Shown here: piece after piece, positions 1 through 60,628 of the stretch
Numbering within the stretch: position 1 is the stretch's first letter
Layout: each line of letters opens with the position of its first letter
Sequence record: NC_028831.1
DNA from: Escherichia phage slur01
DNA: 61,235 bases
Direction: 5' to 3' (one strand)
Notes under the pieces: model-generated
Databases searched by the model: none
The model's input: the letters and a program-made list of their open reading frames with translations, nothing else
Told to the model about the DNA's origin: nothing
Position numbers and translations under genes: made by a program

Positions 1-127
1 CACAGGCATCCCAGGCTGCACGTCCGGACAACCTATAACCACACCATCGCAGGAACCGCCAAAGTGTCCGCCAGCTTCGCTGATACGGAACTGGTGTCCA
101 TTTTCGTCCTGCTGATAGACCTGCATA
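1..127. repeat. 127-bp terminal direct repeat, identical to 61109..61235 (circular permutation or assembly overlap)
   Basis: Bases 1..127 match the last 127 bases of the window exactly; a minus-strand ORF reads through the junction. Confidence 0.9.
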
Positions 128-429
128 CCTGCCGCAAGAAGCATAGCAATGAAACGCGCTTCTTCCAGATGTCCGCGGTTAAACAGTCGAAGCTGGCGTC
201 CGTCAAACTCTTTGCGTGTAGCCCAGCGATATCCATAGAAAAGCTTGCGTGCGCATTGCTGCCCAATAAGGGAAGCGCCTAAGTGGCTGCGGTTACCGCT
301 TTCAGGGCGATAAGCGTCTTCAATTGTGGGAATGACTACGCCAAGATACTTACGGTAAGTCCCACCCTGATCTTTTTGCACACCGTCATTGATCGCTTGA
401 AGTGTTTTTTCTGCAATATAAATAGCCAT
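1..429 (-). CDS. 5' part of a YqaJ/lambda-Exo-like PD-(D/E)xK recombination exonuclease (ATG at 427..429; continues in 60629..61235)
   Basis: The minus-strand frame is open from the ATG at 429 (MAIYIAEKTLQAINDG...GASLIGQQCARKLFYG...) and joins in-frame to MQVYQQDENGHQF at 126, which equals 61234. The ORF-track 33..266 ORF is in another frame. Confidence 0.7.
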   Translation of the reverse strand, partial: MAIYIAEKTLQAINDGVQKDQGGTYRKYLGVVIPTIEDAYRPESGNRSHLGASLIGQQCARKLFYGYRWATRKEFDGRQLRLFNRGHLEEARFIAMLLAAGMQVYQQDENGHQFRISEAGGHFGGSCDGVVIGCPDVQPGMPV

Positions 430-494
430 TGGAATACCTTAGAAAAATAAGCCGTCTTTCGACGGCTTATGGACACTACAGAGGGAGGGTTATC

Positions 495-1382
495 TTACTG
501 CTGCCACGGCGGGACTGCTGCTTGTGCTGGATGCGGTTCAGCTTGCTGCTGCGGCTGAGCTTGCTGCTGAGGTGCTGCTGCCTGACCCGGCTGTGCTACC
601 TGCTGCGCCCACGGCTGCTGGGCTGCTTCCGGTGCTACTGGCTGTTGTACCGGAGCTTGCTGCACTGGCTGCTGTGGTGCTGCGTTTTGAGCAGGATTAT
701 CCCACGGCTGCGGTGCGGCATTCTGCCACGGTTGTGCTGCTGCGCCCTGCTGTGGTGCTGGTTGCTGCTGCACAGGCTGCTGAACTGGCTGCTGTTGCTG
801 CACCGGAGCTTGCTGCTGTACAGGCGCTTGCTGTTGCTGAGCAAACGGGTTAGCTGCTGGTTGCTGTGGTGCTGCGCCCGGGAAAGCTGGCTGCTGAGCT
901 GGCGCACCTGCACCGAACGGGTTAGCTACTGCCGCTTGAGCACCCATTGCTGGAGCACCTGCTTCTTTTTCTGCGTACTTAACCGGATCGTTGATGTTAG
1001 CATAACCGTTAGGCTCGTTGCTGTCTTCATAACCTTCCTGAGAACGAACTTTCAGACGCAGGTTCAGCGGAATGTTATGCAGTTGAGCAGGAGTATCCCA
1101 GCGAATTACGCCAACCGCATGGGAAAGCGCGCCCAGTTGCTCGTATGCAATACGCACAGTATCTTCGTTGTCGTTGATAACGTTGTAACGAGCAAAGATT
1201 TTACGACCTTTAGCAAAACCATCAATAATGCTAAACGTTACCTGGATCGCCATACCGCCATTTTTGGTCGGTTTAAATTCAGATGCTTCAATTACTGCTT
1301 TATACCAACCTTTCGGCAATGCGCCGTAAGAAGGTGCTTGATAGCTGCTCGCGTCAAAGTGGAAATTAGTTGGCATAGTCAT
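495..1382 (-). CDS. SSB-like ssDNA-binding protein with Q/P/A-rich disordered C-terminal tail (likely Sak4 partner)
   Basis: Globular N-terminal domain of about 140 aa followed by a long Gln/Pro/Ala low-complexity tail; start overlaps the upstream stop (TAATG); sits next to a Sak4-type ATPase. Confidence 0.6.
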   Translation of the reverse strand: MTMPTNFHFDASSYQAPSYGALPKGWYKAVIEASEFKPTKNGGMAIQVTFSIIDGFAKGRKIFARYNVINDNEDTVRIAYEQLGALSHAVGVIRWDTPAQLHNIPLNLRLKVRSQEGYEDSNEPNGYANINDPVKYAEKEAGAPAMGAQAAVANPFGAGAPAQQPAFPGAAPQQPAANPFAQQQQAPVQQQAPVQQQQPVQQPVQQQPAPQQGAAAQPWQNAAPQPWDNPAQNAAPQQPVQQAPVQQPVAPEAAQQPWAQQVAQPGQAAAPQQQAQPQQQAEPHPAQAAVPPWQQ

Positions 1383-2110
1383 TAGTTGATACCTTTCATT
1401 TTGTTGATAACAGAACCTAAGTGTGGGACTTCAACCGCATCTAAACGTCCCGAACGATCCTTAGCGATTGTATTAAAGTCCGGTTGAGTTTGCAAGTAAC
1501 GATACGAGTTACCTTGCTGATCCTTATTTACATTCAGACGAAATACTTCGTCGAAGAAGTAAGGGAGCATTTGCCCCAATTTGGATCCAGGCATAGACGG
1601 AGCATACGCGGTAACACCGGAGACTTCATCTTTGTCTTTGCCCATTTTAGCAGACATATAAACATGTTTGCCAGGAATATCGCGAAATTTACGGATCAGA
1701 TCTTGCATCTTTTCAAGCAAAGTACCATAAGCTTGACGAGGATCTTTCGTTCCCTTTTTCGCGTTGTTTAAACATTGTTCAGCAATTTCGCTCAAGCTGT
1801 CAAGTGCAATAGAATCGAAATACTGTTGGTTAGCTGGAGTTACGCACCACTGATAAGCCGCTTCAACGTCTTCCAGACATTTCACTTCAATTACCGGAAT
1901 ATCGTAAACGATGGGCAAACCCATGTTACCATAAACACGGTTAAGGTTTTCCGCTGCAATAGACAACAGACCGGATTCTGCGCTGATTAAAATTGGTTTA
2001 GGTAATGTGGCTACAAGGCTGGTTTTACCCATACCTGCTTCACCGTAAACCAGAATTTTGACACCTGTGTCCTGCACAACTTGTGAAGACATTTTAATTT
2101 CAATGGCCAT
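1382..2110 (-). CDS. Sak4-like RecA-fold ATPase (single-strand annealing recombinase)
   Basis: Walker A motif GEAGMGKTS near the N-terminus; about 240 aa; RBS AGAGAGG; adjacent to SSB-like and exonuclease genes. Confidence 0.7.
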   Translation of the reverse strand: MAIEIKMSSQVVQDTGVKILVYGEAGMGKTSLVATLPKPILISAESGLLSIAAENLNRVYGNMGLPIVYDIPVIEVKCLEDVEAAYQWCVTPANQQYFDSIALDSLSEIAEQCLNNAKKGTKDPRQAYGTLLEKMQDLIRKFRDIPGKHVYMSAKMGKDKDEVSGVTAYAPSMPGSKLGQMLPYFFDEVFRLNVNKDQQGNSYRYLQTQPDFNTIAKDRSGRLDAVEVPHLGSVINKMKGIN

Positions 2111-2175
2111 TTAACGCCTCTCTTTTAAGTTCGCGCTCATTGTAACGTAATATACTTTGAACCCTCAATTACTTT

Positions 2176-3102
2176 TTAATCTAAAGCCTGATCACTTTCA
2201 TCGCGGAAATGCATAAAGTTTGCAAAACGCGGTTTATCTTTCACGCCATGAGGGAAGTGTTTATATGAAATAGTCCGACCTTTAATTTTGTCAGGGTTAT
2301 TCCAATAATAAATCTTATCCTCTTGCGTTAGTTTACCAGGACTAACGTTGATTGTATTGCCCGTCTTAACGTCTTTACAAACCAACGTCCCGATCATACC
2401 GTTAGGAACTTTATTTTCCTGATGCGAAGATCGTGTAGTCCTGCCCAGCTCGTTAACAGTAGCTTCATTAAGGTTAGTTTCACCCTCAATAATATCAAGG
2501 ACAATAGCGTCTTCCTGAATAAATCGTTTAATACGAAGATATCCACCTTCACGAACTGTGCCGCGCCCATGTTTATAAGGCTTGTCAGGATCACGGATAA
2601 TAATACCTTCATAACCCATATCAAGCCAGATATTTTCCCAGTAGAGCAGCTCTTGTAAAGACTTAACCACATGCATCTCTACCACTTTCAGGTCGAACAA
2701 TTCACCCTTCGCGTGCTGTGTGGTTATAAAGTCTTTCATCATGTTGTAGCGAGCTTCATACCCCAGCTCTGCTACACTTTCTGCACACAGATCAAAGATG
2801 TGCCATATTAGCAACGGTTCACCTTCAATTGTATTTACCGCACTGGTTGTTTTACGACACAGGTCTGGATCTGTTTCCAACCCTGCTGCAAGTTCACCGT
2901 CATAGCCCATGTACTGGGGACCGCTGAAAATTGCGCTTGTATGGCGGTTTTTAAACAGCTTTAAGCTTCGCCCTACTATCTGCCCGTCCGGATTTAAACC
3001 GCGCACACCGTCGATTTTAGGCAGTATACAGCACGGAAACTTAATCTTTTCTTCAACCGCGTCAGTTGCTAAATGTGGTTTAAATGCCATTGTTAACCTC
3101 AT
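2176..3102 (-). CDS. ATP-dependent DNA ligase
   Basis: Nucleotidyltransferase motif I KIDGVRG (adenylated lysine); start overlaps the RNase H stop (ATGA). An alternative ATG 12 nt downstream has a better RBS. Confidence 0.8.
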   Translation of the reverse strand: MRLTMAFKPHLATDAVEEKIKFPCCILPKIDGVRGLNPDGQIVGRSLKLFKNRHTSAIFSGPQYMGYDGELAAGLETDPDLCRKTTSAVNTIEGEPLLIWHIFDLCAESVAELGYEARYNMMKDFITTQHAKGELFDLKVVEMHVVKSLQELLYWENIWLDMGYEGIIIRDPDKPYKHGRGTVREGGYLRIKRFIQEDAIVLDIIEGETNLNEATVNELGRTTRSSHQENKVPNGMIGTLVCKDVKTGNTINVSPGKLTQEDKIYYWNNPDKIKGRTISYKHFPHGVKDKPRFANFMHFRDESDQALD

Positions 3103-3725
3103 TCATAATAATCATGTTGATAAGAACTGCTACGCATACCGTAACAACGTTCTAAAAGTGTTGCAGCTTTTTGAGCTTTCTCTTTCATACGAGTATTGCG
3201 ACGTAAATGCCCGCTACCCTTTTTAGGTCTATTTTCCTTTTTCTTTGCTTCGGAAATAAGCTCTTTGCATTCCTGCAAACGGATTTTGCTTCTTTCCAAT
3301 CGCATAGCAGAACGCGCACGTTCATCGCAGAATCTTTGTGCTTTACTACGTTGGTCTTGCGTGCTCGTATGACCTTTAACGTGGCGGAACTCAATAGTTA
3401 GATTATATTTACGCAATTGATCGTTCAACCATTTGAAAGCTACACCTTCCTGTTCACTTTTCCAGCTTGCTTCTTTATACACTTTAATAGCTGTTGAACA
3501 ATCTGTTTGCACAATTAAATGATCGCCTGGATGGATTAATTTAGCCTTCATTCCCTCCCAAATAACATTACAGATTGCCATTGTTTCAGCTGCATTATTA
3601 TCAGGAGCGCCCCGTAACGGTCCACCGTTAGCGTTATTTCCACGGTTGCAGACTACCCAGCCCCCATATCCCGCGGCTTTTGTATTTGGACAAAAACTTG
3701 CATCAGATATAATTGTTACTCTCAT
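3099..3725 (-). CDS. Ribonuclease H
   Basis: N-terminal IISDASF and HVKGH motifs typical of RNase H; basic C-terminal extension. Confidence 0.7.
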   Translation of the reverse strand: MRVTIISDASFCPNTKAAGYGGWVVCNRGNNANGGPLRGAPDNNAAETMAICNVIWEGMKAKLIHPGDHLIVQTDCSTAIKVYKEASWKSEQEGVAFKWLNDQLRKYNLTIEFRHVKGHTSTQDQRSKAQRFCDERARSAMRLERSKIRLQECKELISEAKKKENRPKKGSGHLRRNTRMKEKAQKAATLLERCYGMRSSSYQHDYYE

Positions 3726-7346: not shown

Positions 7347-7585
7347 TTTAACACCTCCAACGGACGAAGTAGTTTATAGTGATTTGTTGCAACCCCGCCA
7401 GTGTTATTATATTTCTTCATAACACTGATGAACCCTTTTTGCCGAAGACTTCTTATACAGCTTGATATCATTGTCTGTTGCAATCCTGTAATTTTAGCCA
7501 ATTTTGCATAACTTATGACAATCTCGTTATTAACACGAGGAGCAAATTTTAATGCTTTATATACTAAAATATCATAAGGACACAT
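7343..7585 (-). CDS. Small winged-helix/HTH DNA-binding protein
   Basis: HTH-like segment ISYAKLAKITGLQQTMISSCIRSLRQKGF; start re-picked at ATG preceded by GAGGTG (track ORF runs to 7759 with no RBS). Confidence 0.45.
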   Translation of the reverse strand: MCPYDILVYKALKFAPRVNNEIVISYAKLAKITGLQQTMISSCIRSLRQKGFISVMKKYNNTGGVATNHYKLLRPLEVLK

Positions 7586-7826
7586 TTCACACCTCATAGA
7601 ATGTACATAAACCAGAAATAACCAGCTACGAAAATAGCACCCGCAAATAATTTTAAAAGCTCGAACATTGTTCCCTCCGTCAACTTTATGCTGTAAGTAT
7701 AGCAGGACTTGCGATGTATGCAACAACTTTAGACTTGAAATACATCTATGAAATAGCACGATTTGCCTTTACCTCTGATCCGTCTAGCTGTACTATTAAC
7801 CCATAAACAGAGCGGAGGATTACAAA

Positions 7827-8051
7827 ATGGTCATGCTGAATAAAGTATATAGCACAATGGGCGCGGATTATAAAGTTGTACGTCACCCGCGTACTGGTAA
7901 ATTTGAAGCATACATCCGTCCAATGGGTGAAGGTTGGATGTATTACGGTACTTATGATGATGCTGAGCAAGCTTATAAAGAAGCGGAAAGTGCCGCGGAA
8001 GCATCCGAAATTATGGCAAGGTACGACGTCGATGATTACTACCTTAACTAA
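7827..8051 (+). CDS. Stand-alone AP2-like DNA-binding domain protein
   Basis: YKVVRHPRTGKFEAYIRPMGEGWMYYGTYDDAEQAYKEAE fits the AP2 pattern (R-x-x-GK-W-x-A-x-I...G-T-F-x-x-x-E-x-A); RBS GGAGGA; plus-strand gene inside a minus-strand block, followed by a terminator. Confidence 0.55.
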   Translation: MVMLNKVYSTMGADYKVVRHPRTGKFEAYIRPMGEGWMYYGTYDDAEQAYKEAESAAEASEIMARYDVDDYYLN

Positions 8052-8055
8052 CAAT

Positions 8056-8083
8056 AAAGGGCCTTTCGGCCCTTTATTTATTC
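8056..8083. terminator. Bidirectional rho-independent terminator
   Basis: AAAGGGCC-TTTC-GGCCCTTT hairpin flanked by A-run and T-run; lies between the convergent AP2 and primase genes. Confidence 0.7.
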
Positions 8084-10420
8084 CTCTTCTCCTAAGTTTG
8101 CCATAATACCTTCAACATCTTGCGTAATGCGCCAAGCTGCGCCAGTGAATCCCAGTTTGATAGTCTCCTCCCGTGTTACCGGAACAAGTGCACCCATAGC
8201 AACCATTTCCTTGATCGTAGACTCGATCGCTGCGGACAATCCGTGGTGATAGTTTTTAAACGCGGACTTACTTGCAAGACGAGTAGTAATATCACCCCGC
8301 GTGATAATGCCTTCCTTACGCAGATCTACACGTTTAACTTTGACCCAATCTTTAGTTAGATAATTCACACAAACCTGGCACATAGTACGGATACGAGCTT
8401 CGTCATTAGTACCGATACCCCCACTATGCCATTCCTTCATAATGATATCCTGTCCATGACGCACAAAGTCCAAGGCCCATTGAACATGATAGGTCTGCAC
8501 AACCGGATTGATCCAGTTTTCTCCCACAGCTAACAGGGCGGATAGACGTAACACCTTCAGGTGGGCACGGTTCCAGGGCTGACGGATTGCTTCGTCTTTG
8601 GTTGCGTTAATATTACGGTCACATTCGTCGTTAAACTGATCACATAATGCTTCCGCTTCTGGACTAAACTGCACTTCAATACTTTGATGCTTTGCCATTG
8701 CGACTAAGGTGTGGTTAACAAGATGGCACACCATATCCCGCAAATGCTGATCCATTGTAGTCTGCTGGTTCTTGTTTAAAGGTGGTCGATCCCCTTCATA
8801 GCGGACAACATGGAAACGGGATAAGAAACCGTCCTCCATCATTTCACGGGTTAATGCTTCAAAGAACGTATCCGGTGTCGTTTCGCCCATGATGCTATAG
8901 GCCACACCTTGTTGAGCTTCCGTATTATTAGCCTTATCAGAATAAGACATACCACCGACAATAGACATCTGACCGGACTTTTGATAAACATCGGTAAGGT
9001 CGTTCTTGAAGCTTTGCATCGGTGAACCTGCTGGCGCCGTAGCCATTGCTTTAATAATCTTACCAAACTCACCGTTCAAGTTGATAAAAGATTGTTTGTC
9101 CGCAAAAGATTTACGCAGTGCAGAGCCGGAAGCACATCGGTCAAAAGATACAAAGCTATGAATCTGCGGAAACGGTTCCTGAAGCTGGCTAACTATATTA
9201 GATAAGCCACTGTTCAACGTTTCTTTACCAACACCAGAACGAGCAATAAGGACAAAATATCCATTAAGACCAGATTGCGGAATCTGCCAGACCTTGCCGC
9301 ATACACCGGCCATAAATCCTAGTGCCGTCACAATAGAAATTTCTTTCACTGGTCGGACGGATGCTTTGTAGATATACTTCGCAAGCTCCCCAGCAAGCCC
9401 CGGCGGCCAGTCAATGGCGGTTGCATCAATAGACGTACTTTCTGCAACTACGGTCTGCCCCTGTGTTGTTTCAACAGTTACGGGCATTTCCGCTACCTGT
9501 TGCATTGCACTGTGTGCCGCTTGCATACGGGCAGCATAATCCCGCGCCAGCGCCGCTACGTTTTCCTGGGCAATGCGCTCACGCTCCATGCGACCGCGAC
9601 ACATACGCAAGCAACGGTCAATATGAACATTGTTCTTATTAGCCTTCTCACGTTTGCCCAGTGCGCTATAACGGAACAGACGACGACATTGCTCATTACT
9701 TTCCGTGTAGAATGCATACATAGAAATAAGGGCAAGGTCTGCTTCAGACTGGGAAGGGAATCCCATTTCAACCCATTCACCGTTAAATAACCGTGCATAC
9801 TTATCGCCGTTATCTGCTTCAAGCGCACGCTGATGAATAGTTGCATCATCTTCTACCGGATCTTTTTCTACCAGTTCAATTTCATATGTCTTGCGCTGAA
9901 GATCAATTTCATTCACAAGCATAGTAAGGTAATGATCACGTTCTGCAACTGGTTTGTTGTAGACGGGATTGCCCGTGCAGATAATAAAACGCTCCTGACT
10001 ATAAACCTCGACACCATCACGTCGACGACCTTTACCGATGTTACCTCTTAACCACAGGTGGACACCCAGGCCTGAGCGACTCACTTCGGTGTAAGTATCG
10101 AATGCAGTCATGATCTGTTCGAAGCGGCGCAACTGTTCCGGCGTCGTGTGCTTTTTGGGATCCGGTTCATTGGTTGCGTTCTTCACATCCAGGTCGATGC
10201 AGGTGAACGGGTCTTGTGCAGTAAGCACGAATCCAATATAAGGTTTATTGAAATGAGCGGCGCAACCTTTGGCAGCTTCAAACGTCATAAGCATATCCGG
10301 ATCGGTAACGTCCGCCGCCATCAAACGTCCAATATCGTTATCCCATACGAGCGGCTTCTTGTCCGCATCGGCCACCGCCCATTGTGGGAAAGCTTTAATT
10401 TCAGCGGGAAACAGTTCCAT
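8078..10420 (-). CDS. Putative DNA primase/replicative helicase (primase-polymerase-like N-terminal domain)
   Basis: 780 aa; N-terminal region resembles bifunctional prim-pol domains; central GYFVLIARSGVGKE P-loop-like segment; strong RBS AGGAGG. Confidence 0.5.
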   Translation of the reverse strand: MELFPAEIKAFPQWAVADADKKPLVWDNDIGRLMAADVTDPDMLMTFEAAKGCAAHFNKPYIGFVLTAQDPFTCIDLDVKNATNEPDPKKHTTPEQLRRFEQIMTAFDTYTEVSRSGLGVHLWLRGNIGKGRRRDGVEVYSQERFIICTGNPVYNKPVAERDHYLTMLVNEIDLQRKTYEIELVEKDPVEDDATIHQRALEADNGDKYARLFNGEWVEMGFPSQSEADLALISMYAFYTESNEQCRRLFRYSALGKREKANKNNVHIDRCLRMCRGRMERERIAQENVAALARDYAARMQAAHSAMQQVAEMPVTVETTQGQTVVAESTSIDATAIDWPPGLAGELAKYIYKASVRPVKEISIVTALGFMAGVCGKVWQIPQSGLNGYFVLIARSGVGKETLNSGLSNIVSQLQEPFPQIHSFVSFDRCASGSALRKSFADKQSFINLNGEFGKIIKAMATAPAGSPMQSFKNDLTDVYQKSGQMSIVGGMSYSDKANNTEAQQGVAYSIMGETTPDTFFEALTREMMEDGFLSRFHVVRYEGDRPPLNKNQQTTMDQHLRDMVCHLVNHTLVAMAKHQSIEVQFSPEAEALCDQFNDECDRNINATKDEAIRQPWNRAHLKVLRLSALLAVGENWINPVVQTYHVQWALDFVRHGQDIIMKEWHSGGIGTNDEARIRTMCQVCVNYLTKDWVKVKRVDLRKEGIITRGDITTRLASKSAFKNYHHGLSAAIESTIKEMVAMGALVPVTREETIKLGFTGAAWRITQDVEGIMANLGEEE

Positions 10421-10426
10421 ATTAAA

Positions 10427-10630
10427 TTAAGACCTCCTACGCTTATCGCCTTGCATTGCTATAAGTGCTGGCTCAGCAATTTCGCGCACGTATACAAATA
10501 CGTTAGCGATACGAACAGCTCCAGGAAGTATATCTCGATTGCGGCACAACTTATAACGACTAACCCCGAAACGGGCTTCAATCTCTGATGTGGTTATATA
10601 CTTAGCATCAAACTCGTCTTGTGCAGTCAT
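10427..10630 (-). CDS. Small HTH DNA-binding protein (AlpA/excisionase-like)
   Basis: ITTSEIEARFGVSRYKLCRNRD helix-turn-helix; RBS AGGAGG. Confidence 0.55.
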   Translation of the reverse strand: MTAQDEFDAKYITTSEIEARFGVSRYKLCRNRDILPGAVRIANVFVYVREIAEPALIAMQGDKRRRS

Positions 10631-10691
10631 AGCTCCTCCTTTGTCCGCACACTATACACAGATAAGAGGAGCCATTGCAACCAAATTTGCA

Positions 10692-11474
10692 TTATTGCGC
10701 AGCAAAGTTCGCATATCCCATAACGCATTCATATACCTCTTCAGGAGTGCGACCTTCCCGTAGATTTATCATCCATTCGTCCAATTGTCCAAGGCGTTGC
10801 TGAGCCTTCGTGATGTCATGAAACGCTTGCCATGGAAAAAAGTTTCCCCCAGCTAGTGCAACCTCTATGCCCGTAGCGGCGTTGCCATATGCCTTGAGCT
10901 TGCAAACAGGCCAACGTCCACGATTATCCCAAATTACGGGTTCCACGTTTTTATCCGGTCGCGAATACCATCTATTTTTAAGAGATGTGATTTCTTTTTC
11001 CGTTAACTGCTCACCCTTCGCACGCTCATTCTTGGCAAGCCAAACTTTAAACACAGACTCATTATTTTTATCCTTTGTTTGGCAAACCTTAAAAGCATTC
11101 TCATATGGTGCTTCCGGCCCAAACCGTTTGTAGTAGTCAAACTTGCCGCGGAACTTTGCAACTTCTTTAGTTGTAAGTTCACGATTTTCTTTTTCCTTTA
11201 TTTGTTCGCGCACCCATGCCATAAACTTATCACGCTCAGGGTTTTCTTTTTTTGCAGCAGCTTTTCCATGTTTAACTTTAGGCGTCACATCTTGTGCGCT
11301 ATCAAAATAATCCTCAACCATCTTAAGAGCCTGCTCTTTAGTTACCTTTCCGCGAATACGGGAGCACGCTTGCACGACCCAGGCCGCGAAGCACAAATCC
11401 TTAACCACATTTGAGTTGGTGCTGGTCGGCTGTTCCTCCGCCACCGCGTTATTGTTAGTCAGCTCTGTATTCAT
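10692..11474 (-). CDS. hypothetical protein (adjacent to iteron array)
   Basis: Start re-picked at ATG (MNTELTNNN...) preceded by GGAGG; the track start at 11534 is a TTG inside the repeat array. Confidence 0.55.
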   Translation of the reverse strand: MNTELTNNNAVAEEQPTSTNSNVVKDLCFAAWVVQACSRIRGKVTKEQALKMVEDYFDSAQDVTPKVKHGKAAAKKENPERDKFMAWVREQIKEKENRELTTKEVAKFRGKFDYYKRFGPEAPYENAFKVCQTKDKNNESVFKVWLAKNERAKGEQLTEKEITSLKNRWYSRPDKNVEPVIWDNRGRWPVCKLKAYGNAATGIEVALAGGNFFPWQAFHDITKAQQRLGQLDEWMINLREGRTPEEVYECVMGYANFAAQ

Positions 11475-11482
11475 ATAGCCTC

Positions 11483-11770
11483 CGATAGGGTATTGCCTTA
11501 ACCCTATGGTAAGACCCTCCCTATTAAATTGCAAGAGTTATTGTAAAACAATAGGTATAGGGTGCAATACAGGGTTCATATAGGGTAACCCTATAAACAC
11601 CCTATAAAATACCCTCCCTATGCAGCTTTCTAAATTTATAGTTTTAGTTTACCCCTTGCGCCCCCGCAGAAAAACTAAAGATAGGGGTACTAGGGTATAA
11701 CAATGGCAAATACCCTATACCCTACTCCCTATACTATGATTCTAAAAAATTTGGTGTATACCCCTATAAA
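11483..11770. repeat. Array of at least 12 CCCTATA/TATAGGG heptamer iterons in both orientations
   Basis: Repeated TATAGGG and CCCTATA in direct and inverted arrangements, e.g. TATAGGGTAACCCTATA; followed by an AT-rich tract (11771..11940). Confidence 0.7.
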
Positions 11771-12106
11771 CTTATAAACTTTCAGTCAACTAACTAAAAT
11801 AAACCTAATTAAACTAATATTAATAATAACTATAAATATATATAAAATAAGGATTTATTATTATTGTATATAGTACCTATTGGTATTATGTGATGAGTTT
11901 ATAGTCACTAAATAAACTCTATAAATTTTAATAAACCTGAACGGATGCAGATCAAAAATGAGAAGTCAAGTGCTTTTGAGGGAAATTTATTGAACTATTG
12001 TGATCGGATGGTATATCAAGCTATAATGCGCTTAATCGCGGGATATTGGAGGAGGACTTTATTGCGCGGTTAACCGGACCAGTAGGAGGGCTGGCCCGGA
12101 AGTAGT

Positions 12107-12433
12107 TTAGAGTTGTACAGGTGTGAAGTGGGCTAGCGTATCGTCGGACATAATACCCGACAGTTTTTCGCTTACCCATTCGGACCAAATACTATCCGGT
12201 TCCTGGCGGTGTACAAACCAGATCTCGGATGTGCCTTCTTTGCGCATCGGTTGCACTTCTGCAAGGAACTTGTCCTGCATGAGGCGGGTGAAGCAGACGC
12301 TGGTCATTGGAACTGGCTTTTCGTCTTTATTGTAATAAGGGACCAATATTTTATTTCCGAAGTCGGCAACTTCATAAACCGTTCCTTTACGTAGACCTCT
12401 GATGTCTGTGTAAGAGCGGATAAATGTTCTCAT
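12107..12433 (-). CDS. hypothetical protein
   Basis: Start at ATG with AGGAG RBS (track uses an upstream GTG at 12439). Confidence 0.5.
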   Translation of the reverse strand: MRTFIRSYTDIRGLRKGTVYEVADFGNKILVPYYNKDEKPVPMTSVCFTRLMQDKFLAEVQPMRKEGTSEIWFVHRQEPDSIWSEWVSEKLSGIMSDDTLAHFTPVQL

Positions 12434-12483
12434 GTTCACTCCTAGGGCTCCCGCAGAAGCCCGTTGGTTGATGTGGTTATGGA

Positions 12484-13098
12484 TTATGCGTCCAGTCCGT
12501 TATATTTGCGCCAGGCGTAGAACTGAATGGCGACCGTTGTCCCGTTGTAAGAAGGCATTGCAGCTTTCATTTCTTTCAGCTCCGGCGTGCGGCCCAGTTC
12601 GGCTAAAAGTTTATCGCCCATTGCCCACACGTCGGCGGTTTTTCCTTTCAGAGGCTTGCGAGCGCCATTTTTGAAATCACAGCGAGCAGCTTTTGCATCC
12701 TGTTTTGGTGCGGCAGCTTTTGGCTCTTCAATTTTGATCTCAGAAACCTGCGTGGCAGCTTTTGCGTGTTTCATATCTTTCTCTTCCTCCTGCTCCAGAG
12801 CTTCGAGGCAGCTTTTGACAATTTCCGGATTTACCATTGGGCGCAGTACCGAGACGCTGGCAGCGGGCGCGGCGGTTGGTGCCGGGACTTTCTGCTCCGG
12901 CTGTTGCGCTTTCTTATGGTCGCGCAGCACCTGAAGCACTTCCTTTTCGACGATGTAAAAACCGATCTCGTCCTGATGGATTAACTGTTCGTGTGCGTCG
13001 CGTGCAACCTGGCCCCAGCGAGTTTTGAGGGCGCGGCGTGCATTCGTTTTCATGGTGTAGCGCATTTTGTCCTGTTCGCGGTGAGTTACTTTAGACAT
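12484..13098 (-). CDS. hypothetical protein
   Basis: Start re-picked at MSKVTHREQ with GGAG RBS; Ala/Pro-rich linker in the middle. Confidence 0.5.
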   Translation of the reverse strand: MSKVTHREQDKMRYTMKTNARRALKTRWGQVARDAHEQLIHQDEIGFYIVEKEVLQVLRDHKKAQQPEQKVPAPTAAPAASVSVLRPMVNPEIVKSCLEALEQEEEKDMKHAKAATQVSEIKIEEPKAAAPKQDAKAARCDFKNGARKPLKGKTADVWAMGDKLLAELGRTPELKEMKAAMPSYNGTTVAIQFYAWRKYNGLDA

Positions 13099-13171
13099 GG
13101 TATAGCTCCTTTCGTTAATATTAGTTTGCTTATTACTGCCCACCGTAATGATGAGCAGTGTATAAGAAAAC

Positions 13172-13420
13172 TTATTGCACGATTGCTACGAAATCGGCGG
13201 TTGCGATATCCATGCTTGCGAAAGCAACGATGCTATAGTCGGTGTCGTTGTCCGCGTTAAAAGCTTTGAGGAACTGCTGCACCGCTGCTTTATGGTTAAG
13301 AGTTACGTCGATAGCATAGTCCCAGCTATAGACTTTGCGCTTGCCAAAACCTTTAACTGCAATGCGAGCGCTTTTAGTGTTGGTTGGTGCCAAAAATTTG
13401 GTGACGATAGAAGTAGCCAT
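13172..13420 (-). CDS. hypothetical protein
   Basis: 82-aa ORF with RBS GAGGA. Confidence 0.5.
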   Translation of the reverse strand: MATSIVTKFLAPTNTKSARIAVKGFGKRKVYSWDYAIDVTLNHKAAVQQFLKAFNADNDTDYSIVAFASMDIATADFVAIVQ

Positions 13421-13451
13421 GATGTAATCCTCGTTTTGTTTAAGTTGACTT

Positions 13452-13480
13452 ATTATTGCCCAGTCAGATCAACTAGGCAA
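13452..13480 (-). promoter_or_regulatory. Putative sigma70-type early promoter (TTGCCT-17-AATAAT) for the leftward operon
   Basis: On the minus strand, hexamers TTGCCT and AATAAT with a 17-nt spacer about 30 nt upstream of the 13420 start codon. Confidence 0.3.
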
Positions 13481-13958
13481 GATATAAATCACTTAATTTG
13501 TACTAAATCGTATTCCTTGTAGATGTCGCTAATGTACATATCAAACTGACCCATTAAGAAGATTTCGGCCTCCTCCCAGCTTGGGGCAGATACATAACCA
13601 GCTATTTACCGGAGGCGAGTTCCACTAATTTGAATTCCATGATGCAACCTTAATGTGGTTAAGCAGTATTGCTTTGTTGAAGTAATAATAGCCTTGCATC
13701 GTGATATTGAATAGGCCAAAAGTGCTCTTTTAGAATTGTTTTGCATCTAGTGAAAAATACGCTTGCCCTGCATGTTTAGCACTAATGGCCTAACTAACAT
13801 CACATTATCTGGAGTATTCGCGCGGGCGCACACATACATATAAAGCTGCCAAAATATTTTTATAAAAAGATGCAAAAAGGTGTAGACATATGATCGGTCT
13901 AGCATTACTATATACACATACCGCAAGGTACTACAAATTAACTTAAAGGGTACACATT

Positions 13959-14243
13959 ATGTCCATCGTCACTATGTCGTTCTTCGACCATTGCAATAAC
14001 GAAAAACAAATTATCGTTAACCTGCAAAAAGGGTTTGTTGTCGCACGCAATGCTAACCGCCAATGCATCGCGCTAACCGATTTTGCTTTCCGCCTTAACG
14101 TGGACAACACCACCGCTAAAAATATCGTTCACGATACAGCGTTGGAAGCTGCTCACGCTGCGAAGGATAAAGGTATCCGTGCCGCACGCGAGATTATGCA
14201 CAAGGCGCTCGGCGTCACGTTCTTCGTTGGGATTAAGGGGTAA
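13959..14243 (+). CDS. hypothetical protein (first gene of rightward block)
   Basis: 94-aa ORF at the head of the plus-strand block after a divergent intergenic region. Confidence 0.5.
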   Translation: MSIVTMSFFDHCNNEKQIIVNLQKGFVVARNANRQCIALTDFAFRLNVDNTTAKNIVHDTALEAAHAAKDKGIRAAREIMHKALGVTFFVGIKG

Positions 14244-14248
14244 CTACT

Positions 14249-14392
14249 ATGTCACGCAAATACACGCTTACACGCGCACAGCACGCGTTATTATTGCAGG
14301 TTATGCGCATGGAGTACGAAGAGACTACATGGGCACAAGCTATGCAGACAGGGCGCGAGTTCTACGCGCAACTAATAGCACAAAATGCCTAG
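14249..14392 (+). CDS. hypothetical small protein (47 aa)
   Basis: ATG preceded by AAGGGG; below the ORF-track size cutoff. Confidence 0.3.
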   Translation: MSRKYTLTRAQHALLLQVMRMEYEETTWAQAMQTGREFYAQLIAQNA

Positions 14393-14451
14393 ACAACATG
14401 ATCGGTCTGGTGGATACTACACACATCAACCAAACAACGGGGGTAAACAAA

Positions 14452-14679
14452 ATGCGTAGTTTCAAATGTGTAAGCGTAAATACTACTGGTAACGGTCTGT
14501 TCACGGCAGGTAATGTATATGACTTCAACATGGAAAGTTATAAAGACACAACGCTTACAGGTGTAATGTTCGGTGGCGCTCGTGTCGTTCGCTGCCATTT
14601 AAACAAGAACACGGAAAATGAATATACCCTTATCAGTCGCTACACGGGCGAGCCGTTAGCTGTGTTCCATGCAGCTTAA
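14452..14679 (+). CDS. hypothetical protein
   Basis: ATG preceded by GGGGG; the track's longer 14083..14679 ORF has no plausible upstream start. Confidence 0.45.
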   Translation: MRSFKCVSVNTTGNGLFTAGNVYDFNMESYKDTTLTGVMFGGARVVRCHLNKNTENEYTLISRYTGEPLAVFHAA

Positions 14680-15143
14680 GCTATAACGCACACAGCGCCG
14701 CGCTAGCGAGCTAATGTACATAGGTAATGGTAATGCATTAGCTCGGGCGAAACAGGCGCACAGCGTCGCGCACAGCTCGCACAGCGCACACAGACCCACG
14801 CAGGCCCAGCCGCGCAACCCGACCCATCCTTTTCCAGGTACTTGGATCGCTGGGGCGTGCCCTGTCCATCCTGATAGTATCCTTGTTTGAAAATCTAACT
14901 CGTCAACTATGTTGTTGCCGACATACGCACCCATCACATCCCTGTCCACCTACATCCATGACCCCACCTACCTTCTTTTTGAATATATTACACTCATCCT
15001 TTCTAAATATATGGATTTTGGTAGTAAATTCTGAGTCGTCAACGTATAATTCGTCTTGTAGCTGCTCCATAGCTATCATCTTTAAGCGGATGCAACCAAT
15101 TTCTATCAATTCTTACCAGTTTTACAGCATCAAGGAGGTATTT

Positions 15144-19623: not shown

Positions 19624-20115
19624 ATGGAATGGTCTTCCATATTCACTTATTTGGATGGAAAGCTGTTCTGGAAAACTTCTAGAGGTGGTAGAGTTATACC
19701 AGGAGCACTTGCTGGTCATGCTACAAAGAGGGGTTACGTCAAAATACGATGCGGTTGTAGTTTCTATCTAAGGCATCGTATAGTATGGGAAATGCATAAT
19801 GGTTCCATTCCCGAAAATATGCAAATAGATCATATTAATCACGTTCCTGGAGATGATAGGATAGAGAATCTTAGATTAGTTACAAGTACATTAAATAATA
19901 GGAACGTAACCAGATCTAAGCTTAATAAGTCTGGTGTTACTGGTGTTTGCTATCACAAAAGAAATAAAAGATGGATAGCTTATATTAATACACAGGTCGG
20001 TCAAGTAAGACTTGGCTCTTTTATTAATTTTGAAGATGCTGTCAATGCTCGTAAAAATGCTGAGATTGTATATGAATACCACGAGAATCATGGAACTGAA
20101 CGTAAGAGTTTTTGA
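19624..20115 (+). CDS. HNH homing endonuclease with C-terminal AP2 domain
   Basis: HNH core HRIVWEMHNG...IDHINHVPGDDRIENL followed by AP2 segment SGVTGVCYHKRNKRWIAYI...GSFINFEDAVNARKNAE; start re-picked at ATG with GAGGG RBS. Confidence 0.75.
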   Translation: MEWSSIFTYLDGKLFWKTSRGGRVIPGALAGHATKRGYVKIRCGCSFYLRHRIVWEMHNGSIPENMQIDHINHVPGDDRIENLRLVTSTLNNRNVTRSKLNKSGVTGVCYHKRNKRWIAYINTQVGQVRLGSFINFEDAVNARKNAEIVYEYHENHGTERKSF

Positions 20116-20359
20116 TGTTTTACCTTCACAATTAAACTGGAGGATAAAAGATTTTTATAACTATGTCCAAGTGAACGATGATATTTTCTTCACTGATTGT
20201 GAGGAGGTAGCTATTGCGATTATTGATAGTCTGCAAACTAATGGCCTTGTTATCTTTTGGGATGGGGTTAACGATTACTCAGTATATTCAGAAAAGTATC
20301 TTGGCGAAGGGAACTCATTATTCGCTAAGTCCTGCGTTCTGGCATTCCTTAATAGATGA
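20090..20359 (+). CDS. hypothetical protein
   Basis: Start uncertain; chosen as the first ATG not deep inside the HNH gene. Confidence 0.35.
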   Translation: MELNVRVFDVLPSQLNWRIKDFYNYVQVNDDIFFTDCEEVAIAIIDSLQTNGLVIFWDGVNDYSVYSEKYLGEGNSLFAKSCVLAFLNR

Positions 20360-20444
20360 TCCGTCATATCCAATTCAGCTTGCTCCTCTTGATCAAAGCC
20401 TGTTAATATTATCAAGCCTAAATCAAGCGGAGGAGGCTTTATCT

Positions 20445-51676: not shown

Positions 51677-51697
51677 ATCTTAAATAAACCTCCAATG

Positions 51698-51736
51698 ACT
51701 AAAAAGCCCATACCAGTATTATGACCGATATGGGCT
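51698..51736 (-). terminator. Rho-independent terminator (minus strand)
   Basis: AGCCCATA...TATGGGCT hairpin followed by TTTTTAG on the minus strand, downstream of the HNH gene. Confidence 0.55.
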
Positions 51737-51755
51737 TGATCTGTAAAGCTATCTA

Positions 51756-52214
51756 TTATTTAAAATTAGCTTTCTTAGTTTCGCTAATTTTACGTTTGGT
51801 TTCCTCTGTATGATGTTTCCCGTACATTGGATTCAGTTCACCATATTTTTGATACATTGGGTTATCTTTCCCAAACCGTGGACGTGTCCTTGCCCTCCCT
51901 CTAACTTTCTTATCCAACCCGTTTTGTTTTTGATCTCCTAAATATAAATGATCTGGGTTAATGCAAGACGGATTATCACATGTATGCAGAACGCACCCTG
52001 TAGCGGAATCAGGTAAACCAATTTCTCCTTTGTACAGTTTATAGCTCTCGCGATGCGCAAAACTAAAAATTCGTTCACCTTTGGAACCACTAATCATTCT
52101 ACCGTAACCGTCTTTATCCTTACTACCAGTCCAGTTCCAGCAACCAGTAGAAGGGTCTATAACGTATTTGCTTAGTCTTTCGGACATCGGCTTTTTAGTA
52201 TAGACCCTTGGCAT
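51756..52214 (-). CDS. HNH homing endonuclease
   Basis: GCWNWTGSKDKDGYGRM and HTCDNPSCINPDHL HNH_3-type motifs; inserted between folE and dpdA. Confidence 0.75.
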   Translation of the reverse strand: MPRVYTKKPMSERLSKYVIDPSTGCWNWTGSKDKDGYGRMISGSKGERIFSFAHRESYKLYKGEIGLPDSATGCVLHTCDNPSCINPDHLYLGDQKQNGLDKKVRGRARTRPRFGKDNPMYQKYGELNPMYGKHHTEETKRKISETKKANFK

Positions 52215-52215
52215 A

Positions 52216-60626: not shown

Positions 60627-60628
60627 AA

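What the first reader, a model, noticed from the sequence alone, without database searches (positions are those of the whole stretch)
11483..11940. Dense array of CCCTATA/TATAGGG heptamers next to an AT-rich tract: candidate origin or operator
At least 12 copies of the heptamer occur in both orientations within about 300 bp, including the near-palindrome TATAGGGTAACCCTATA, directly followed by a roughly 170-bp AT-rich region. Iterons plus an AT-rich unwinding element are the classic architecture of a replication origin. The array abuts the start of ORF 10692..11474 and lies near the primase gene.
Basis: seen in the sequence. Interest (0 to 1): 0.65.

Follow-up and report, generated by a model that had tools for sequence, protein, structure and literature searches.

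The report
Iteron-like array beside phage genome end
Fourteen short CCCTAT repeats next to the most AT-rich DNA of this E. coli phage form a real protein-docking array that changes in step with the neighbouring gene in related phages; it is most likely the phage's replication origin plus its own control switch, and it lies where the terminal repeat of the phage DNA begins.

Summary
The window is a Seuratvirus (about 97% identical to phages CAjan and Seurat). There are 14 CCCTA cores (12 CCCTAT, 7 exact CCCTATA) in 296 bp against 0.12 expected. They are followed by a 170-bp tract of 81% A+T, the least stable duplex in the 61 kb.

Across 25 related loci the array has exclusive variants:
- CCCTAT;
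- CACTAT, laid out in positionally matching places;
- a third class with AAGTTTTG and GGAATA repeats.

The only genome segment that changes with the array is the adjacent cassette 10421-11743 (gp64, gp65 and the array). The primase-helicase and the small terminase subunit stay 99-100% identical across classes. Natural recombinants exclude gp64 and the C-terminal half of gp65 as the repeat reader, which leaves the N-terminal half of gp65, a protein with no known relatives.

New finding: two related records carry exact terminal duplications. Both edges map to homologous sites, so I predict a 3.15-kb direct terminal repeat at 11716-14863 that starts inside the array.

Best reading (0.45): a SaPI-like iteron origin with a trans-acting specificity protein and a self-regulated promoter. 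Rivals are an operator only (0.25) and a terminus-processing element (0.15). Nothing was tested biochemically.

The parts
8078..10420 (-). Primase-polymerase/helicase (gp63-like, 780 aa), third gene of the operon that starts at the array
   Evidence: PHROG 3022 'DNA primase' E=3e-275; Pfam NrS1-1_pol-like_HBD. Pfam DUF3987 is recorded on a relative. It is 100% identical in amino acids to the KurtStettler primase, although that phage has the other repeat class.
10427..10630 (-). gp64-like 67-aa winged-helix protein of the MerR/Xis/BldC type
   Evidence: AF2 model pLDDT 84, topology beta-alpha-alpha-beta-beta-alpha. Best Foldseek matches are BldC 6ama (prob 0.95), Tn916 Xis 1y6u (0.94), SoxR, RacA and RdfS, but E-values are only about 0.2. 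No Pfam hit. It is present in all three classes. No alignment column is fixed and different between CCCTA-type and CACTA-type phages; only one column (S15 vs A/T) has disjoint residue sets.
10692..11474 (-). gp65-like 260-aa protein, candidate reader of the repeats (N-terminal half)
   Evidence: No Pfam or NCBIfam hit; PHROG 27223, function unknown. Only 5 hits among 1.84 billion representative proteins. Found only in Seuratvirus phages. The AF2 model is weak (pLDDT 67): three two-helix units plus a C-terminal beta/alpha domain. Eight alignment columns are fixed and different between CCCTA-type and CACTA-type phages, all in residues 22-115.
11485..11524 (.). Promoter-proximal sites: inverted pair ATAGGG(11485-11490)-N11-CCCTAT(11502-11507) plus CCCTAT 11519-11524 (with ACCCT 11514-11518)
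   Evidence: They lie between the Shine-Dalgarno sequence and the -35-like hexamer of the operon.
11506..11567 (-). Promoter-like hexamers for the gp65-gp64-primase operon: TTGCAA(11534-11529)-17-TACCAT(11511-11506) and TTGCAC(11567-11562)-16-TACAAT(11545-11540)
   Evidence: Only 8 of 12 matches each. The TTGCAA hexamer is kept in class B, where it pairs with TATAGT, itself a repeat (my reading). The depositors of SA126VB annotated TTGCCA-17-TATAAT further upstream in that phage's gap, about 60 bp beyond the position equivalent to the window's hexamers, flanked by CACTAT sites.
11556..11621 (.). Central dyad cluster: TAGGG at 11558 and 11581 (plus CAGGG 11571) facing CCCTA at 11589, 11600 and 11616 (plus ACCCT 11610); includes the palindrome 11579-11595
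   Evidence: Inverted repeat I1 has arms 11559-11586 and 11588-11615. Sites are 8-23 bp apart, and 8-13 bp apart once the partial CAGGG (11571) and ACCCT (11610) sites are counted.
11622..11680 (.). Spacer between the two clusters: a short AT-rich stretch, then C-runs (CCCCTTGCGCCCCC), then an A-run. The sites on its two sides point towards each other.
   Evidence: Every class has a spacer of this style (T-run, C4-5 runs, A-run) but with a different sequence.
11681..11768 (.). Right cluster: TAGGG at 11682 and 11691; CCCTA at 11713, 11720 and 11727 (7-bp tandem); CCCTA at 11762
   Evidence: inverted repeat I6. Positionally homologous to the class B sites TAGTAGTAGTAGTG ... CCACTATCACTACTATACTAT.
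11716..14863 (.). Predicted direct terminal repeat of the virion DNA. Its left edge lies inside the right cluster of the array.
   Evidence: ECP2304 positions 1-3695 equal 59896-63590 exactly. Hafnia phage yong3 positions 1-3424 equal 59400-62823 exactly. The left edges map about 60 nt left of the anchor (window 11715-11716). The right edges both fall 2 nt before CCATCCTGATAGTA, which is window 14866-14879. This is inferred for the window, not observed in it.
11776..11790 (+). Anchor AAACTTTCAGTCAAC: boundary between the class-specific part and the conserved part
   Evidence: Exact in 21 of 21 Seuratvirus loci of all three classes. Diverged in the two more distant metagenomic phages.
11776..11945 (.). 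Conserved AT-rich tract (80.6% A+T), lowest duplex stability in the genome
   Evidence: Conserved across classes A, B and C.
11766..11936 (.). Second, class-independent repeat ATAAAC, 6 copies on both sides of the AT core (11766, 11774, 11799 | 11897 on the minus strand, 11912, 11931)
   Evidence: Six observed against 0.79 expected; 0 of 1000 dinucleotide shuffles reach 6. ATAAAC is also among the commonest 6-mers in the class B gap and in yong3.
11998..12027 (+). Best sigma-70-like match of the gap, TTGTGA-18-TATAAT, pointing rightwards, antisense to gp66
   Evidence: 10 of 12 matches. The sequence is conserved in all classes.
12032..12099 (.). Two conserved hairpins just after the stop codon of the gp66-like gene (12107..12433, minus strand): terminator-like end of the leftward early operon
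   Evidence: Minus-strand RNA fold -29.3 kcal/mol, z = -3.6. Plus-strand fold z = -2.3. Depositors of SA80RD and SA126VB annotated a terminator here. There is no U-tract.

Best explanation
The array is a set of about 14 binding sites for a protein encoded in the adjacent cassette, most probably the N-terminal half of gp65. I read it as the phage's replication origin, combined with the autoregulated promoter of the replication operon.

Proposed mechanism:
1. gp65 is made from a weak promoter that three sites overlap, so it limits its own synthesis.
2. gp65 oligomers fill the two dyad-arranged clusters, whose sites face each other across a 59-bp spacer. This distorts or melts the DNA at the spacer and/or the adjoining AT-rich tract.
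3. The bound complex recruits the class-invariant primase-polymerase/helicase encoded two genes downstream, perhaps with the small Xis/BldC-like protein gp64 as an architectural partner.
4. Because the array sits at the left edge of the predicted terminal repeat, rightward synthesis from it would copy that repeat.

Shown here: the array and its statistics; its class switching; its co-inheritance with the cassette; the exclusion of primase, small terminase, gp64 and the C-half of gp65 as specificity readers; the AT-tract stability minimum; the skew flip; and the terminal-repeat edges in two relatives.

Inferred: protein binding, origin firing, autoregulation, and the link to terminal-repeat copying.
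For: 1. Fourteen short sites in 296 bp, P about 1e-24. They form dyad clusters with minus-oriented sites to the left of plus-oriented sites.
2. Motif use is mutually exclusive across 23 loci: CCCTA 13-14 with CACTA 0 in class A; CACTA 10-15 with CCCTA 0-2 in class B; AAGTTTTG and GGAATA in class C.
3. The class A and class B arrays align site by site with the same single-base change, for example TATAGGGTAACCCTATA against TATAGTGAGCCACTATA. This is concerted change, as expected for a protein-DNA recognition pair.
4. The only genome segment that follows the array class is 10421-11743.
5. The primase is 100% identical between the window (class A) and KurtStettler (class B). The small terminase is 98.9-100% identical in all classes.
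6. L025 has a class-B-type gp64 but CCCTAT repeats. L024 has a foreign gp65 C-half but keeps CCCTA repeats. The eight class-diagnostic residues all lie in gp65 residues 22-115.
7. In class C, gp65 is replaced by a different DNA-binding protein (AP2 domain, E = 2e-4, below Pfam's cut-off) together with different repeats.
8. The AT-rich tract is more than 5 sd less stable than the genome mean.
9. The plus-strand GC skew of minus-strand genes is negative left of the gap (12 of 14 ORFs) and zero or positive for the three genes right of it.
10. The layout matches SaPI origins: 6-12 penta- or hexanucleotide iterons next to pri-rep, in opposite orientations around an AT-rich centre (PMC9371898).
Against: - There is no experimental or marker-frequency evidence that replication starts here.
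- gp65 resembles no known initiator and its model is weak.
- There are no DnaA boxes in the gap.
- The 5' end of gp65 is physically next to the array, so simple linkage could produce the gp65-N association.
- The leftmost sites overlap promoter-like hexamers, so part or all of the array could be purely regulatory.
- The large AT-rich tract is conserved across classes and lies at the start of the predicted terminal repeat. It may belong to packaging or end functions rather than unwinding.
- The skew evidence rests on three small genes.
Confidence: 0.45

Rival explanations
1. Operator array only. The repeats are binding sites for a cassette-encoded transcription factor (gp65 and/or gp64, acting like P2 Cox or BldC on arrays of short boxes). 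[quoted passage not shown] Replication starts elsewhere.
For: - An inverted pair ATAGGG-N11-CCCTAT and a third site lie between the -35-like hexamer and the ribosome-binding site.
- In class B the -10-like hexamer TATAGT is itself a repeat. In SA126VB an 11/12 promoter annotated by the depositors is flanked by CACTAT sites.
- gp64 has a Xis/BldC/MerR-type fold.
- Yong3's depositors named the homolog 'regulatory protein cox'.
- Regulator-operator pairs are classic co-varying cassettes.
- The gap sits between a terminator-like hairpin and the operon.
Against: - Only 3-4 of 14 sites are near the promoter-like hexamers. The rest extend to 290 bp upstream in two dyad clusters around a spacer.
- The motif occurs at chance level elsewhere in the genome, so it is not a general promoter element.
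- The class A promoter matches are weak (8 of 12).
- This reading does not explain the skew flip or the adjacency to the stability minimum.
Confidence: 0.25
2. Terminus-processing element. The array marks the junction between unique DNA and the terminal repeat. It helps cut, or copy the terminal repeat in, concatemers, like the heptamer arrays that flank the T7 terminal repeat (from my own knowledge of Dunn and Studier's T7 sequence; not checked here).
For: - The left edge of the terminal duplication in ECP2304 and yong3 maps to window 11715-11716, inside the right cluster. In class C it falls at a GGAATAATTTATTCC palindrome.
- Both edges are homologous in two phages.
- The physical end of 9g lies at the equivalent of the right edge (PMC4276943).
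- Iggy, another Queuovirinae phage, has a measured terminal repeat.
Against: - The small terminase is 98.9-100% identical across classes with different arrays.
- The cut position keeps its distance from the conserved anchor, not from any class-specific site.
- There is no matching array at the right edge near 14863.
- The array travels with replication genes, not packaging genes. terS lies 10 kb away.
Confidence: 0.15
3. A pac site made of repeats bound by the small terminase, or a plasmid-like partition (centromere) site.
For: Arrays of short repeats around a bendable AT-rich centre resemble P1 and SPP1 pac sites and the parC site of plasmid R1 (from my own knowledge). The region lies at a genome end.
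Against: - The small terminase does not co-vary with the array.
- No partition ATPase lies nearby.
- The phage has no integrase and no matching sequence in 5,426 E. coli genomes.
- The conserved ATAAAC repeats and anchor are better candidates for terminase recognition than the class-specific array.
Confidence: 0.05

Closest known systems
SaPI replication origins (Staphylococcus aureus pathogenicity islands; pri-rep-ori)
   Same: - Penta- or hexanucleotide iterons, 6-12 copies, directly next to a primase/helicase operon.
- Iterons on the two sides of an AT-rich centre point in opposite directions.
- Iteron sequence and recognition protein differ between related elements as matched pairs (PMC9371898).
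   Different: - In SaPIs the iterons are read by a winged-helix domain at the C-terminus of the Rep helicase itself. Here the primase-helicase is identical in phages with different repeats, so recognition must come from a separate protein.
- The array lies upstream of the operon, not downstream of rep.
- A much larger AT-rich tract lies to one side.
- There is no sequence relationship.
Lambdoid phage ori with O protein; iteron plasmids (pSC101, F, P1, R6K)
   Same: - Repeats next to an AT-rich unwinding tract.
- The initiator's DNA-binding part and the iterons are exchanged together between relatives.
- Inverted half-sites at the initiator's own promoter give autoregulation (from my own knowledge; review PMC4980987 listed).
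   Different: - Those iterons are 17-22 bp direct repeats; here the cores are 5-7 bp in both orientations.
- Lambda ori lies inside the O gene.
- gp65 has no detectable similarity to O, Rep_3 or any Pfam family.
- No DnaA boxes.
pRN1-type replicons (small DNA-binding protein plus prim-pol/helicase ORF904)
   Same: An operon in which a small DNA-binding protein precedes an NrS-1/pRN1-type primase-polymerase fused to a helicase. The promoter region and the origin are cis elements beside the operon (PMC4234260 abstract; PMC5862659).
   Different: - It is an archaeal plasmid.
- ORF56 is a CopG-type repressor, not a Xis-type winged helix.
- The origin is downstream and is not an array of short repeats.
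P2 Cox, lambda Xis and BldC: small winged-helix proteins that coat arrays of short boxes
   Same: gp64 has this fold, and such proteins bind several closely spaced short repeats cooperatively (from my own knowledge).
   Different: gp64 does not co-vary with the class-defining base of the repeats. If it binds here, it reads something else, for example the shared CTATA part or the conserved ATAAAC repeats.
Repeat arrays flanking the T7 terminal repeat (SRL/SRR)
   Same: An array of heptamer-scale repeats directly abuts a direct terminal repeat (the T7 facts are from my own knowledge).
   Different: - T7 has arrays on both flanks. Here only the left edge has one.
- The Seuratvirus array varies with a replication-gene cassette.

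Membership tests
Iteron-type replication origin (SaPI / lambda / iteron-plasmid kind) | Cluster of several copies of a short repeat, far above chance | tested here: met
   14 CCCTA in 296 bp against 0.12 expected
Iteron-type replication origin (SaPI / lambda / iteron-plasmid kind) | Adjacent or central AT-rich, easily melted tract | tested here: met
   11785-11934 is the least stable 150 bp of the genome. There is also a short AT stretch in the spacer 11622-11651.
Iteron-type replication origin (SaPI / lambda / iteron-plasmid kind) | Located beside the genes for the initiator or replicative helicase | tested here: met
   The array starts 11 nt from the first gene of the gp65-gp64-primase/helicase operon.
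Iteron-type replication origin (SaPI / lambda / iteron-plasmid kind) | Repeats and a cognate protein change together between relatives | tested here: met
Three exclusive repeat classes travel with cassette 10421-11743 and with nothing else.
Iteron-type replication origin (SaPI / lambda / iteron-plasmid kind) | Strand-composition switch at the site | tested here: inconclusive
   The skew of minus-strand genes changes sign at the gap, but only three genes lie on the right. The cumulative minimum is broad, 12.0-15.2 kb.
Iteron-type replication origin (SaPI / lambda / iteron-plasmid kind) | Initiator binds the repeats, and replication starts there | not testable with these tools
   Needs EMSA or footprinting and marker-frequency or 2D-gel analysis.
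DnaA-dependent origin | DnaA boxes (TTATNCACA) in the region | tested here: not met
   None with one mismatch or fewer in 11475-12106. The nearest are inside gp65.
Autoregulatory operator | Binding sites overlap the promoter of the regulator's own operon | tested here: inconclusive
   Three sites lie between the -35-like hexamer and the ribosome-binding site, but the hexamers score only 8 of 12 and no transcription start is known. A stronger promoter is annotated in SA126VB further upstream in the gap, flanked by CACTAT sites.
pac site bound by small terminase | Specificity follows the small terminase; site in or near terS | tested here: not met
   The small terminase is 98.9-100% identical in classes A, B and C. 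terS is at 21904, 10 kb away.
T7-type arrays flanking a terminal repeat | Repeat arrays on both flanks of the terminal repeat | tested here: not met
   An array is present only at the left edge. There is no CCCTAT near 14863.
MerR/Xis/BldC-type winged helix (gp64) | beta-alpha-alpha-beta-beta(-alpha) fold; match to a family profile | tested here: inconclusive
   Fold and top structural neighbours agree (prob 0.85-0.95, TM 0.5-0.66), but E is about 0.2. No Pfam or PDB sequence match reaches significance.

The most novel reading that the evidence does not exclude
gp65 founds a new family of origin-specificity proteins. Three tandem two-helix units would read 5-7-bp iterons and recruit a class-invariant primase-polymerase/helicase. 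The origin would sit deliberately at the edge of a 3.1-kb direct terminal repeat, so that origin firing duplicates that repeat for packaging.

A further twist: every one of the 14 sites ends in GGT or GGA, which are reported target contexts of the CAjan DpdA enzyme. Post-replicative 7-deazaguanine modification could therefore mark used origins, much as Dam methylation does at oriC.
Probability: 0.15. Interest if true: 0.8.

Novelty: new variant of a known kind. Interest (0 to 1): 0.55.

Why it matters
- No replication origin, origin-binding protein or genome-end structure has been described for Seuratvirus in the papers I could search. This genus is used in the BASEL collection and in work on 7-deazaguanine DNA.
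- The natural series of arrays differs by one base in every site, and recombinants mix the candidate proteins. Together they give a ready-made specificity experiment for an uncharacterised DNA-binding protein family.
- If the array is the origin, a primase-polymerase/helicase that carries its own origin-recognition domain in SaPIs and many plasmids has here handed that job to a separate, exchangeable protein.
- The predicted terminal repeat also matters practically. Most deposited Seuratvirus genomes would be missing about 3 kb of their true ends.

Tried and rejected
- **Rfam:** scan of 11300-12300 at E <= 1 found no match.
- **gp65 function:** no Pfam or NCBIfam hit; its only PHROG match (27223) has no known function. 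The exhaustive HMMER search returned only its own narrow family plus three marginal repeat-like hits. The AF2 model had pLDDT 67, and Foldseek against the PDB gave only meaningless matches.
- **gp64 by sequence:** no significant PDB or Pfam match.
- **IMG/VR search with the primase:** only 3 loci, one of them the window itself.
- **E. coli genomes:** no copy of the cassette or array, so it is not a prophage or satellite element there.
- **Primase as repeat reader:** rejected, because the identical protein occurs with two repeat classes.
- **gp64 as reader of the class-defining base:** rejected by L025 and by the column analysis.
- **An unlinked co-varying gene:** rejected for the segments that differ between the window and KurtStettler. 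They are HNH endonucleases or unique inserts shared across classes.
- **General promoter motif, or T7-promoter-like TATAGGG:** rejected, because the motif is at chance frequency outside the array.
- **DnaA boxes:** none.
- **Terminal duplication of ECP2304 as an assembly accident:** considered and rejected. Yong3 shows the same two edges at homologous positions.
- **More distant relatives:** Providencia phage PSTCR7 shows no array near its primase. Nonagvirus SP8 has an AT-rich, repeat-bearing gap (CTTTATAAA units) upstream of the same operon, but it is not alignable.
- **9g record:** its deposited start is not the physical end. The published end at 28,243 had to be located inside the record.
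Full report
**Identity and setting.** The window is a complete Seuratvirus genome (subfamily Queuovirinae). The 3 kb around the finding is 96-97% identical to Escherichia phages CAjan and Seurat, and the window itself is an IMG/VR contig. The finding lies in a 632-bp gene-free gap, 11475-12106, inside a long block of minus-strand genes. To its right are small early genes; the gp66-like gene is 12107-12433. To its left is an operon of three genes:
- a 260-aa protein of unknown function (10692-11474, here gp65);
- a 67-aa protein (10427-10630, gp64);
- a 780-aa primase-polymerase/helicase (8078-10420).

All 25 related loci I examined have a long gap in the same place.

**The observation.** The exact heptamer occurs 7 times, the hexamer CCCTAT 12 times and the core CCCTA 14 times between 11486 and 11767. 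From the rest of the window 0.12 CCCTA are expected in 296 bp (P about 1e-24). Simulated genomes never exceed 6, and shuffles of the region never exceed 4. The site consensus is (A)CCCTAT(A).

The sites fall into four groups:
- three next to the gene start (11485-11524);
- a dyad cluster at 11556-11621, which holds the palindrome 11579-11595;
- a right cluster at 11681-11733;
- one site at 11762.

In each cluster the minus-oriented sites lie left of the plus-oriented ones. A 59-bp spacer (11622-11680) separates the two main clusters. The 170-bp tract 11776-11945 is 80.6% A+T, and 11785-11934 is by a wide margin the least stable duplex in the genome.

**Comparison with relatives: the key result.** The right two thirds of the gap are conserved in all Seuratvirus loci, starting with the 15-mer AAACTTTCAGTCAAC (11776-11790), which is exact in 21 of 21 loci. 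The left ~300-460 bp are not conserved and come in exclusive classes:

| Class | Phages | Repeats |
|---|---|---|
| A | window, CAjan, Seurat, SLUR26 | 13-14 CCCTA, no CACTA |
| B | 12 phages, including KurtStettler, Greed, Dru_SM1 | 10-15 CACTA, 0-2 CCCTA |
| C | Skure, GottfriedDienst, VogelGryff, STP-SP5, one metagenomic contig | AAGTTTTG and GGAATA |

The class A and class B arrays align position by position, with the same one-base change in site after site. Examples are GTATAGGGTG against GTATAGTGCG, TATAGGGTAACCCTATA against TATAGTGAGCCACTATA, and ACCCTATACCCTACT against CCACTATCACTACT. Such concerted change in homologous sites is what a change of specificity in a DNA-binding protein predicts. 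Neutral drift does not predict it.

**Which protein follows the repeats.**
- A whole-genome comparison of the window with KurtStettler (class B) is collinear at 88-99% identity, apart from the tail-fibre genes, some small inserts and the segment 10421-11743.
- The other divergent segments are homing endonucleases or unique inserts. They are shared with phages of other classes or absent from other class A phages, so they do not follow the array.
- The primase-helicase is 100% identical in amino acids between the window and KurtStettler.
- The small terminase is 98.9-100% identical in all three classes.

Two metagenomic phages act as natural swaps:
- L025 has a gp64 of the class B type (69-73% identity to class B, 52% to class A, the same helix-turn-helix residues) but CCCTAT repeats. 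Its gp65 is nearest to class A.
- L024 has the window's gp64 (100%) and a chimeric gp65 (N-half 79% to the window; C-half 48% to the window but 64% to a class B protein). It keeps CCCTA/CCCCTA repeats.

Column analysis gives the same answer. gp64 has no position fixed and different between CCCTA-type and CACTA-type phages. gp65 has eight such positions, all in residues 22-115: N22T, K51A, K71R, K75G, R89S, T101D, F108Y and Y115H.

There is a caveat. The 5' end of gp65 is the DNA closest to the array, so linkage alone could give this pattern. The firm conclusion is negative: gp64, the C-half of gp65, the primase and the terminase need not match the repeats.

In class C, gp65 is absent. A 93-aa protein with an AP2-type DNA-binding domain (E = 2e-4, below Pfam's cut-off) and an 89-aa protein take its place.

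**The proteins.**
- gp65 has no Pfam or NCBIfam match, and its only PHROG match (27223) has no known function. It has only its own narrow family among 1.84 billion representative proteins and occurs only in Seuratvirus records. Its model is weak (pLDDT 67). The model suggests three two-helix units with a recurring F/W...LTxKE pattern at about residues 29, 84 and 142, followed by a beta/alpha domain. The structure search found nothing usable.
- gp64 models well (pLDDT 84) as a beta-alpha-alpha-beta-beta-alpha winged helix. Its nearest solved folds are BldC, Tn916 Xis, SoxR, RacA and RdfS, but E-values are only about 0.2 and sequence searches are not significant.

**Promoter and terminator.** On the minus strand, TTGCAA-17-TACCAT (11534-11506) and TTGCAC-16-TACAAT (11567-11540) are the best promoter-like matches upstream of gp65. 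Each scores only 8 of 12. Three sites, including the inverted pair ATAGGG-N11-CCCTAT, lie between them and the ribosome-binding site. In class B the corresponding -10-like hexamer is TATAGT, itself a repeat (my reading). In SA126VB the depositors annotated TTGCCA-17-TATAAT further upstream in the gap, flanked by CACTAT sites. Two conserved hairpins at 12032-12099 follow the gp66 stop codon (z = -3.6 on the minus strand) and were annotated as a terminator in two relatives.

**Strand composition.** Twelve of the 14 minus-strand ORFs left of the gap have negative plus-strand GC skew (one of the two exceptions, 7746-8054, overlaps a gene that CAjan annotates on the plus strand). The three minus-strand genes right of it have skews of +0.045, +0.006 and +0.113, and their third-position skew is reversed. 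Cumulative skew has a broad minimum between 12.0 and 15.2 kb. This fits a replication-related switch at the gap, but the evidence is thin.

**An unexpected finding: the genome end.**
- The ECP2304 record (63,590 bp) repeats its first 3,695 bp exactly at its end.
- The record of Hafnia phage yong3, a more distant Seuratvirus, repeats its first 3,424 bp.
- In both, the left edge lies about 60 nt left of the anchor or its equivalent, which is window 11715-11716, inside the right cluster of the array.
- In both, the right edge falls 2 nt before CCATCCTGATAGTA, which the window has at 14866-14879.

Two edges at homologous sites in two phages argue for a real direct terminal repeat. For the window I predict 11716-14863. 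Two published results are consistent with this:
- The physical end of Nonagvirus 9g (position 28,243, with evidence for a terminal repeat; PMC4276943) lies in the divergent intergenic region, after GGGGCGGCTCT. This resembles the window's GGGGCGTGCCCTGT before the right edge.
- Phage iggy of the same subfamily has a measured terminal repeat (PMC10484667).

The local sequence at the left edge differs between classes, while its distance to the conserved anchor is kept. The end is therefore probably set from the conserved part. That part also carries a second, class-independent repeat, ATAAAC, six times on both sides of the AT core (0 of 1000 shuffles reach six).

**Interpretation.** The gap has two layers:
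- a class-specific layer, 11485-11770: the array, its spacer and the promoter. It belongs to the gp64-gp65 cassette;
- a conserved layer, 11776-12106: the anchor, the AT-rich tract with ATAAAC repeats, a plus-strand promoter-like site and the hairpins. It opens the terminal repeat.

For the class-specific layer I favour a SaPI-like origin with built-in autoregulation (0.45). The reasons:
- the short iterons, their number, and their opposite orientation around a spacer;
- the position next to a primase/helicase operon;
- the exchange of matched modules between relatives.

All of these are the described hallmarks of SaPI origins (PMC9371898). The stability minimum and the skew flip point the same way. 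The main difference is that recognition is in trans.

An operator-only reading (0.25) explains the promoter-proximal sites well, but not the 10 or more distal ones. A terminus-processing role (0.15) is suggested by the edge inside the array, but the invariant terminase and the absence of an array at the other edge argue against it. A pac or partition site is unlikely (0.05). The roles are not exclusive. An origin at the edge of the terminal repeat could serve to copy that repeat.

**Literature.** I found no description of an origin, of these repeats or of the terminal repeat for Seuratvirus in the searchable papers.

Noticed in passing
window 11716-14863 (edges inferred from L029/L030 = ECP2304 and L034/L035 = yong3): Two related records carry exact terminal duplications of 3.4-3.7 kb with both edges at homologous sites. 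This predicts a 3.15-kb direct terminal repeat in this phage. Most deposited Seuratvirus genomes (56-60 kb) would then lack one copy.
   Followed up: yes
window 14840-14879: The right edge of the predicted terminal repeat lies after GGGGCGTGCCCTGT and before CCATCCTGATAGTA. The published physical end of Nonagvirus 9g follows a similar GGGGCGGCTCT (L033:1744).
   Followed up: partly
window 11766-11936: A second repeat, ATAAAC, occurs six times on both sides of the AT core. It is independent of the array class, and is also among the commonest 6-mers in the class B gap and in yong3. It is a candidate site for a conserved protein (terminase or helicase).
   Followed up: partly
window 11998-12099: A conserved plus-strand promoter-like site (TTGTGA-18-TATAAT, 10 of 12) points away from all nearby genes, into two conserved hairpins and antisense to gp66. 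It could be a small RNA, an origin-activating transcript or half of a bidirectional terminator. No Rfam match.
   Followed up: partly
window 11486-11767: All 14 sites end in GGT (11 sites) or GGA (3 sites). These are contexts reported as targets of the CAjan DpdA enzyme (GA, GGC, GGT; PMC10484667), so each site may carry a 7-deazaguanine in mature DNA.
   Followed up: no
window 10692-11474 (gp65): There is an internal threefold repeat of about 55 aa (F/W...G..LTxKE at about residues 29, 84 and 142). In the metagenomic phage L024 the protein is a chimera of a class-A-like N-half and a class-B-like C-half, and its array mixes CCCCTA with TACTAC runs.
   Followed up: partly
L004:2807-3088 (Skure) and other class C loci: In class C phages gp65 is replaced by a 93-aa stand-alone AP2-domain protein and an 89-aa protein. 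The GGAATA repeats there flank the AT-rich tract on both sides.
   Followed up: partly
window 51677-52305 (ORF 51756..52214, 152 aa): A segment between the DpdA and FolE genes of the deazaguanine cluster has no match in any of 50,697 phage records, including CAjan and Seurat.
   Followed up: no
window 19624-20422 and 60125-60627: HNH homing-endonuclease inserts are shared at 98-99% identity with a scattered subset of Seuratvirus phages of other array classes.
   Followed up: partly
window 526-825 (within ORFs 429..1385 / 495..1382): GCAGCA occurs 14 times in 300 bp in the most GC-rich kilobase of the window (56% GC). This is probably a coding trinucleotide repeat.
   Followed up: no
window 7350-7582: A 233-bp segment is absent from every related locus fetched, including the class A phages.
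   Followed up: no
L023:1-800 (Nonagvirus SP8): The sister genus has an ~800-bp gene-free region upstream of the operon that leads to its small protein and primase. It has an AT-rich centre and five or six CTTTATAAA(T)T units, so it is similar in style to the Seuratvirus gap but not alignable.
   Followed up: no
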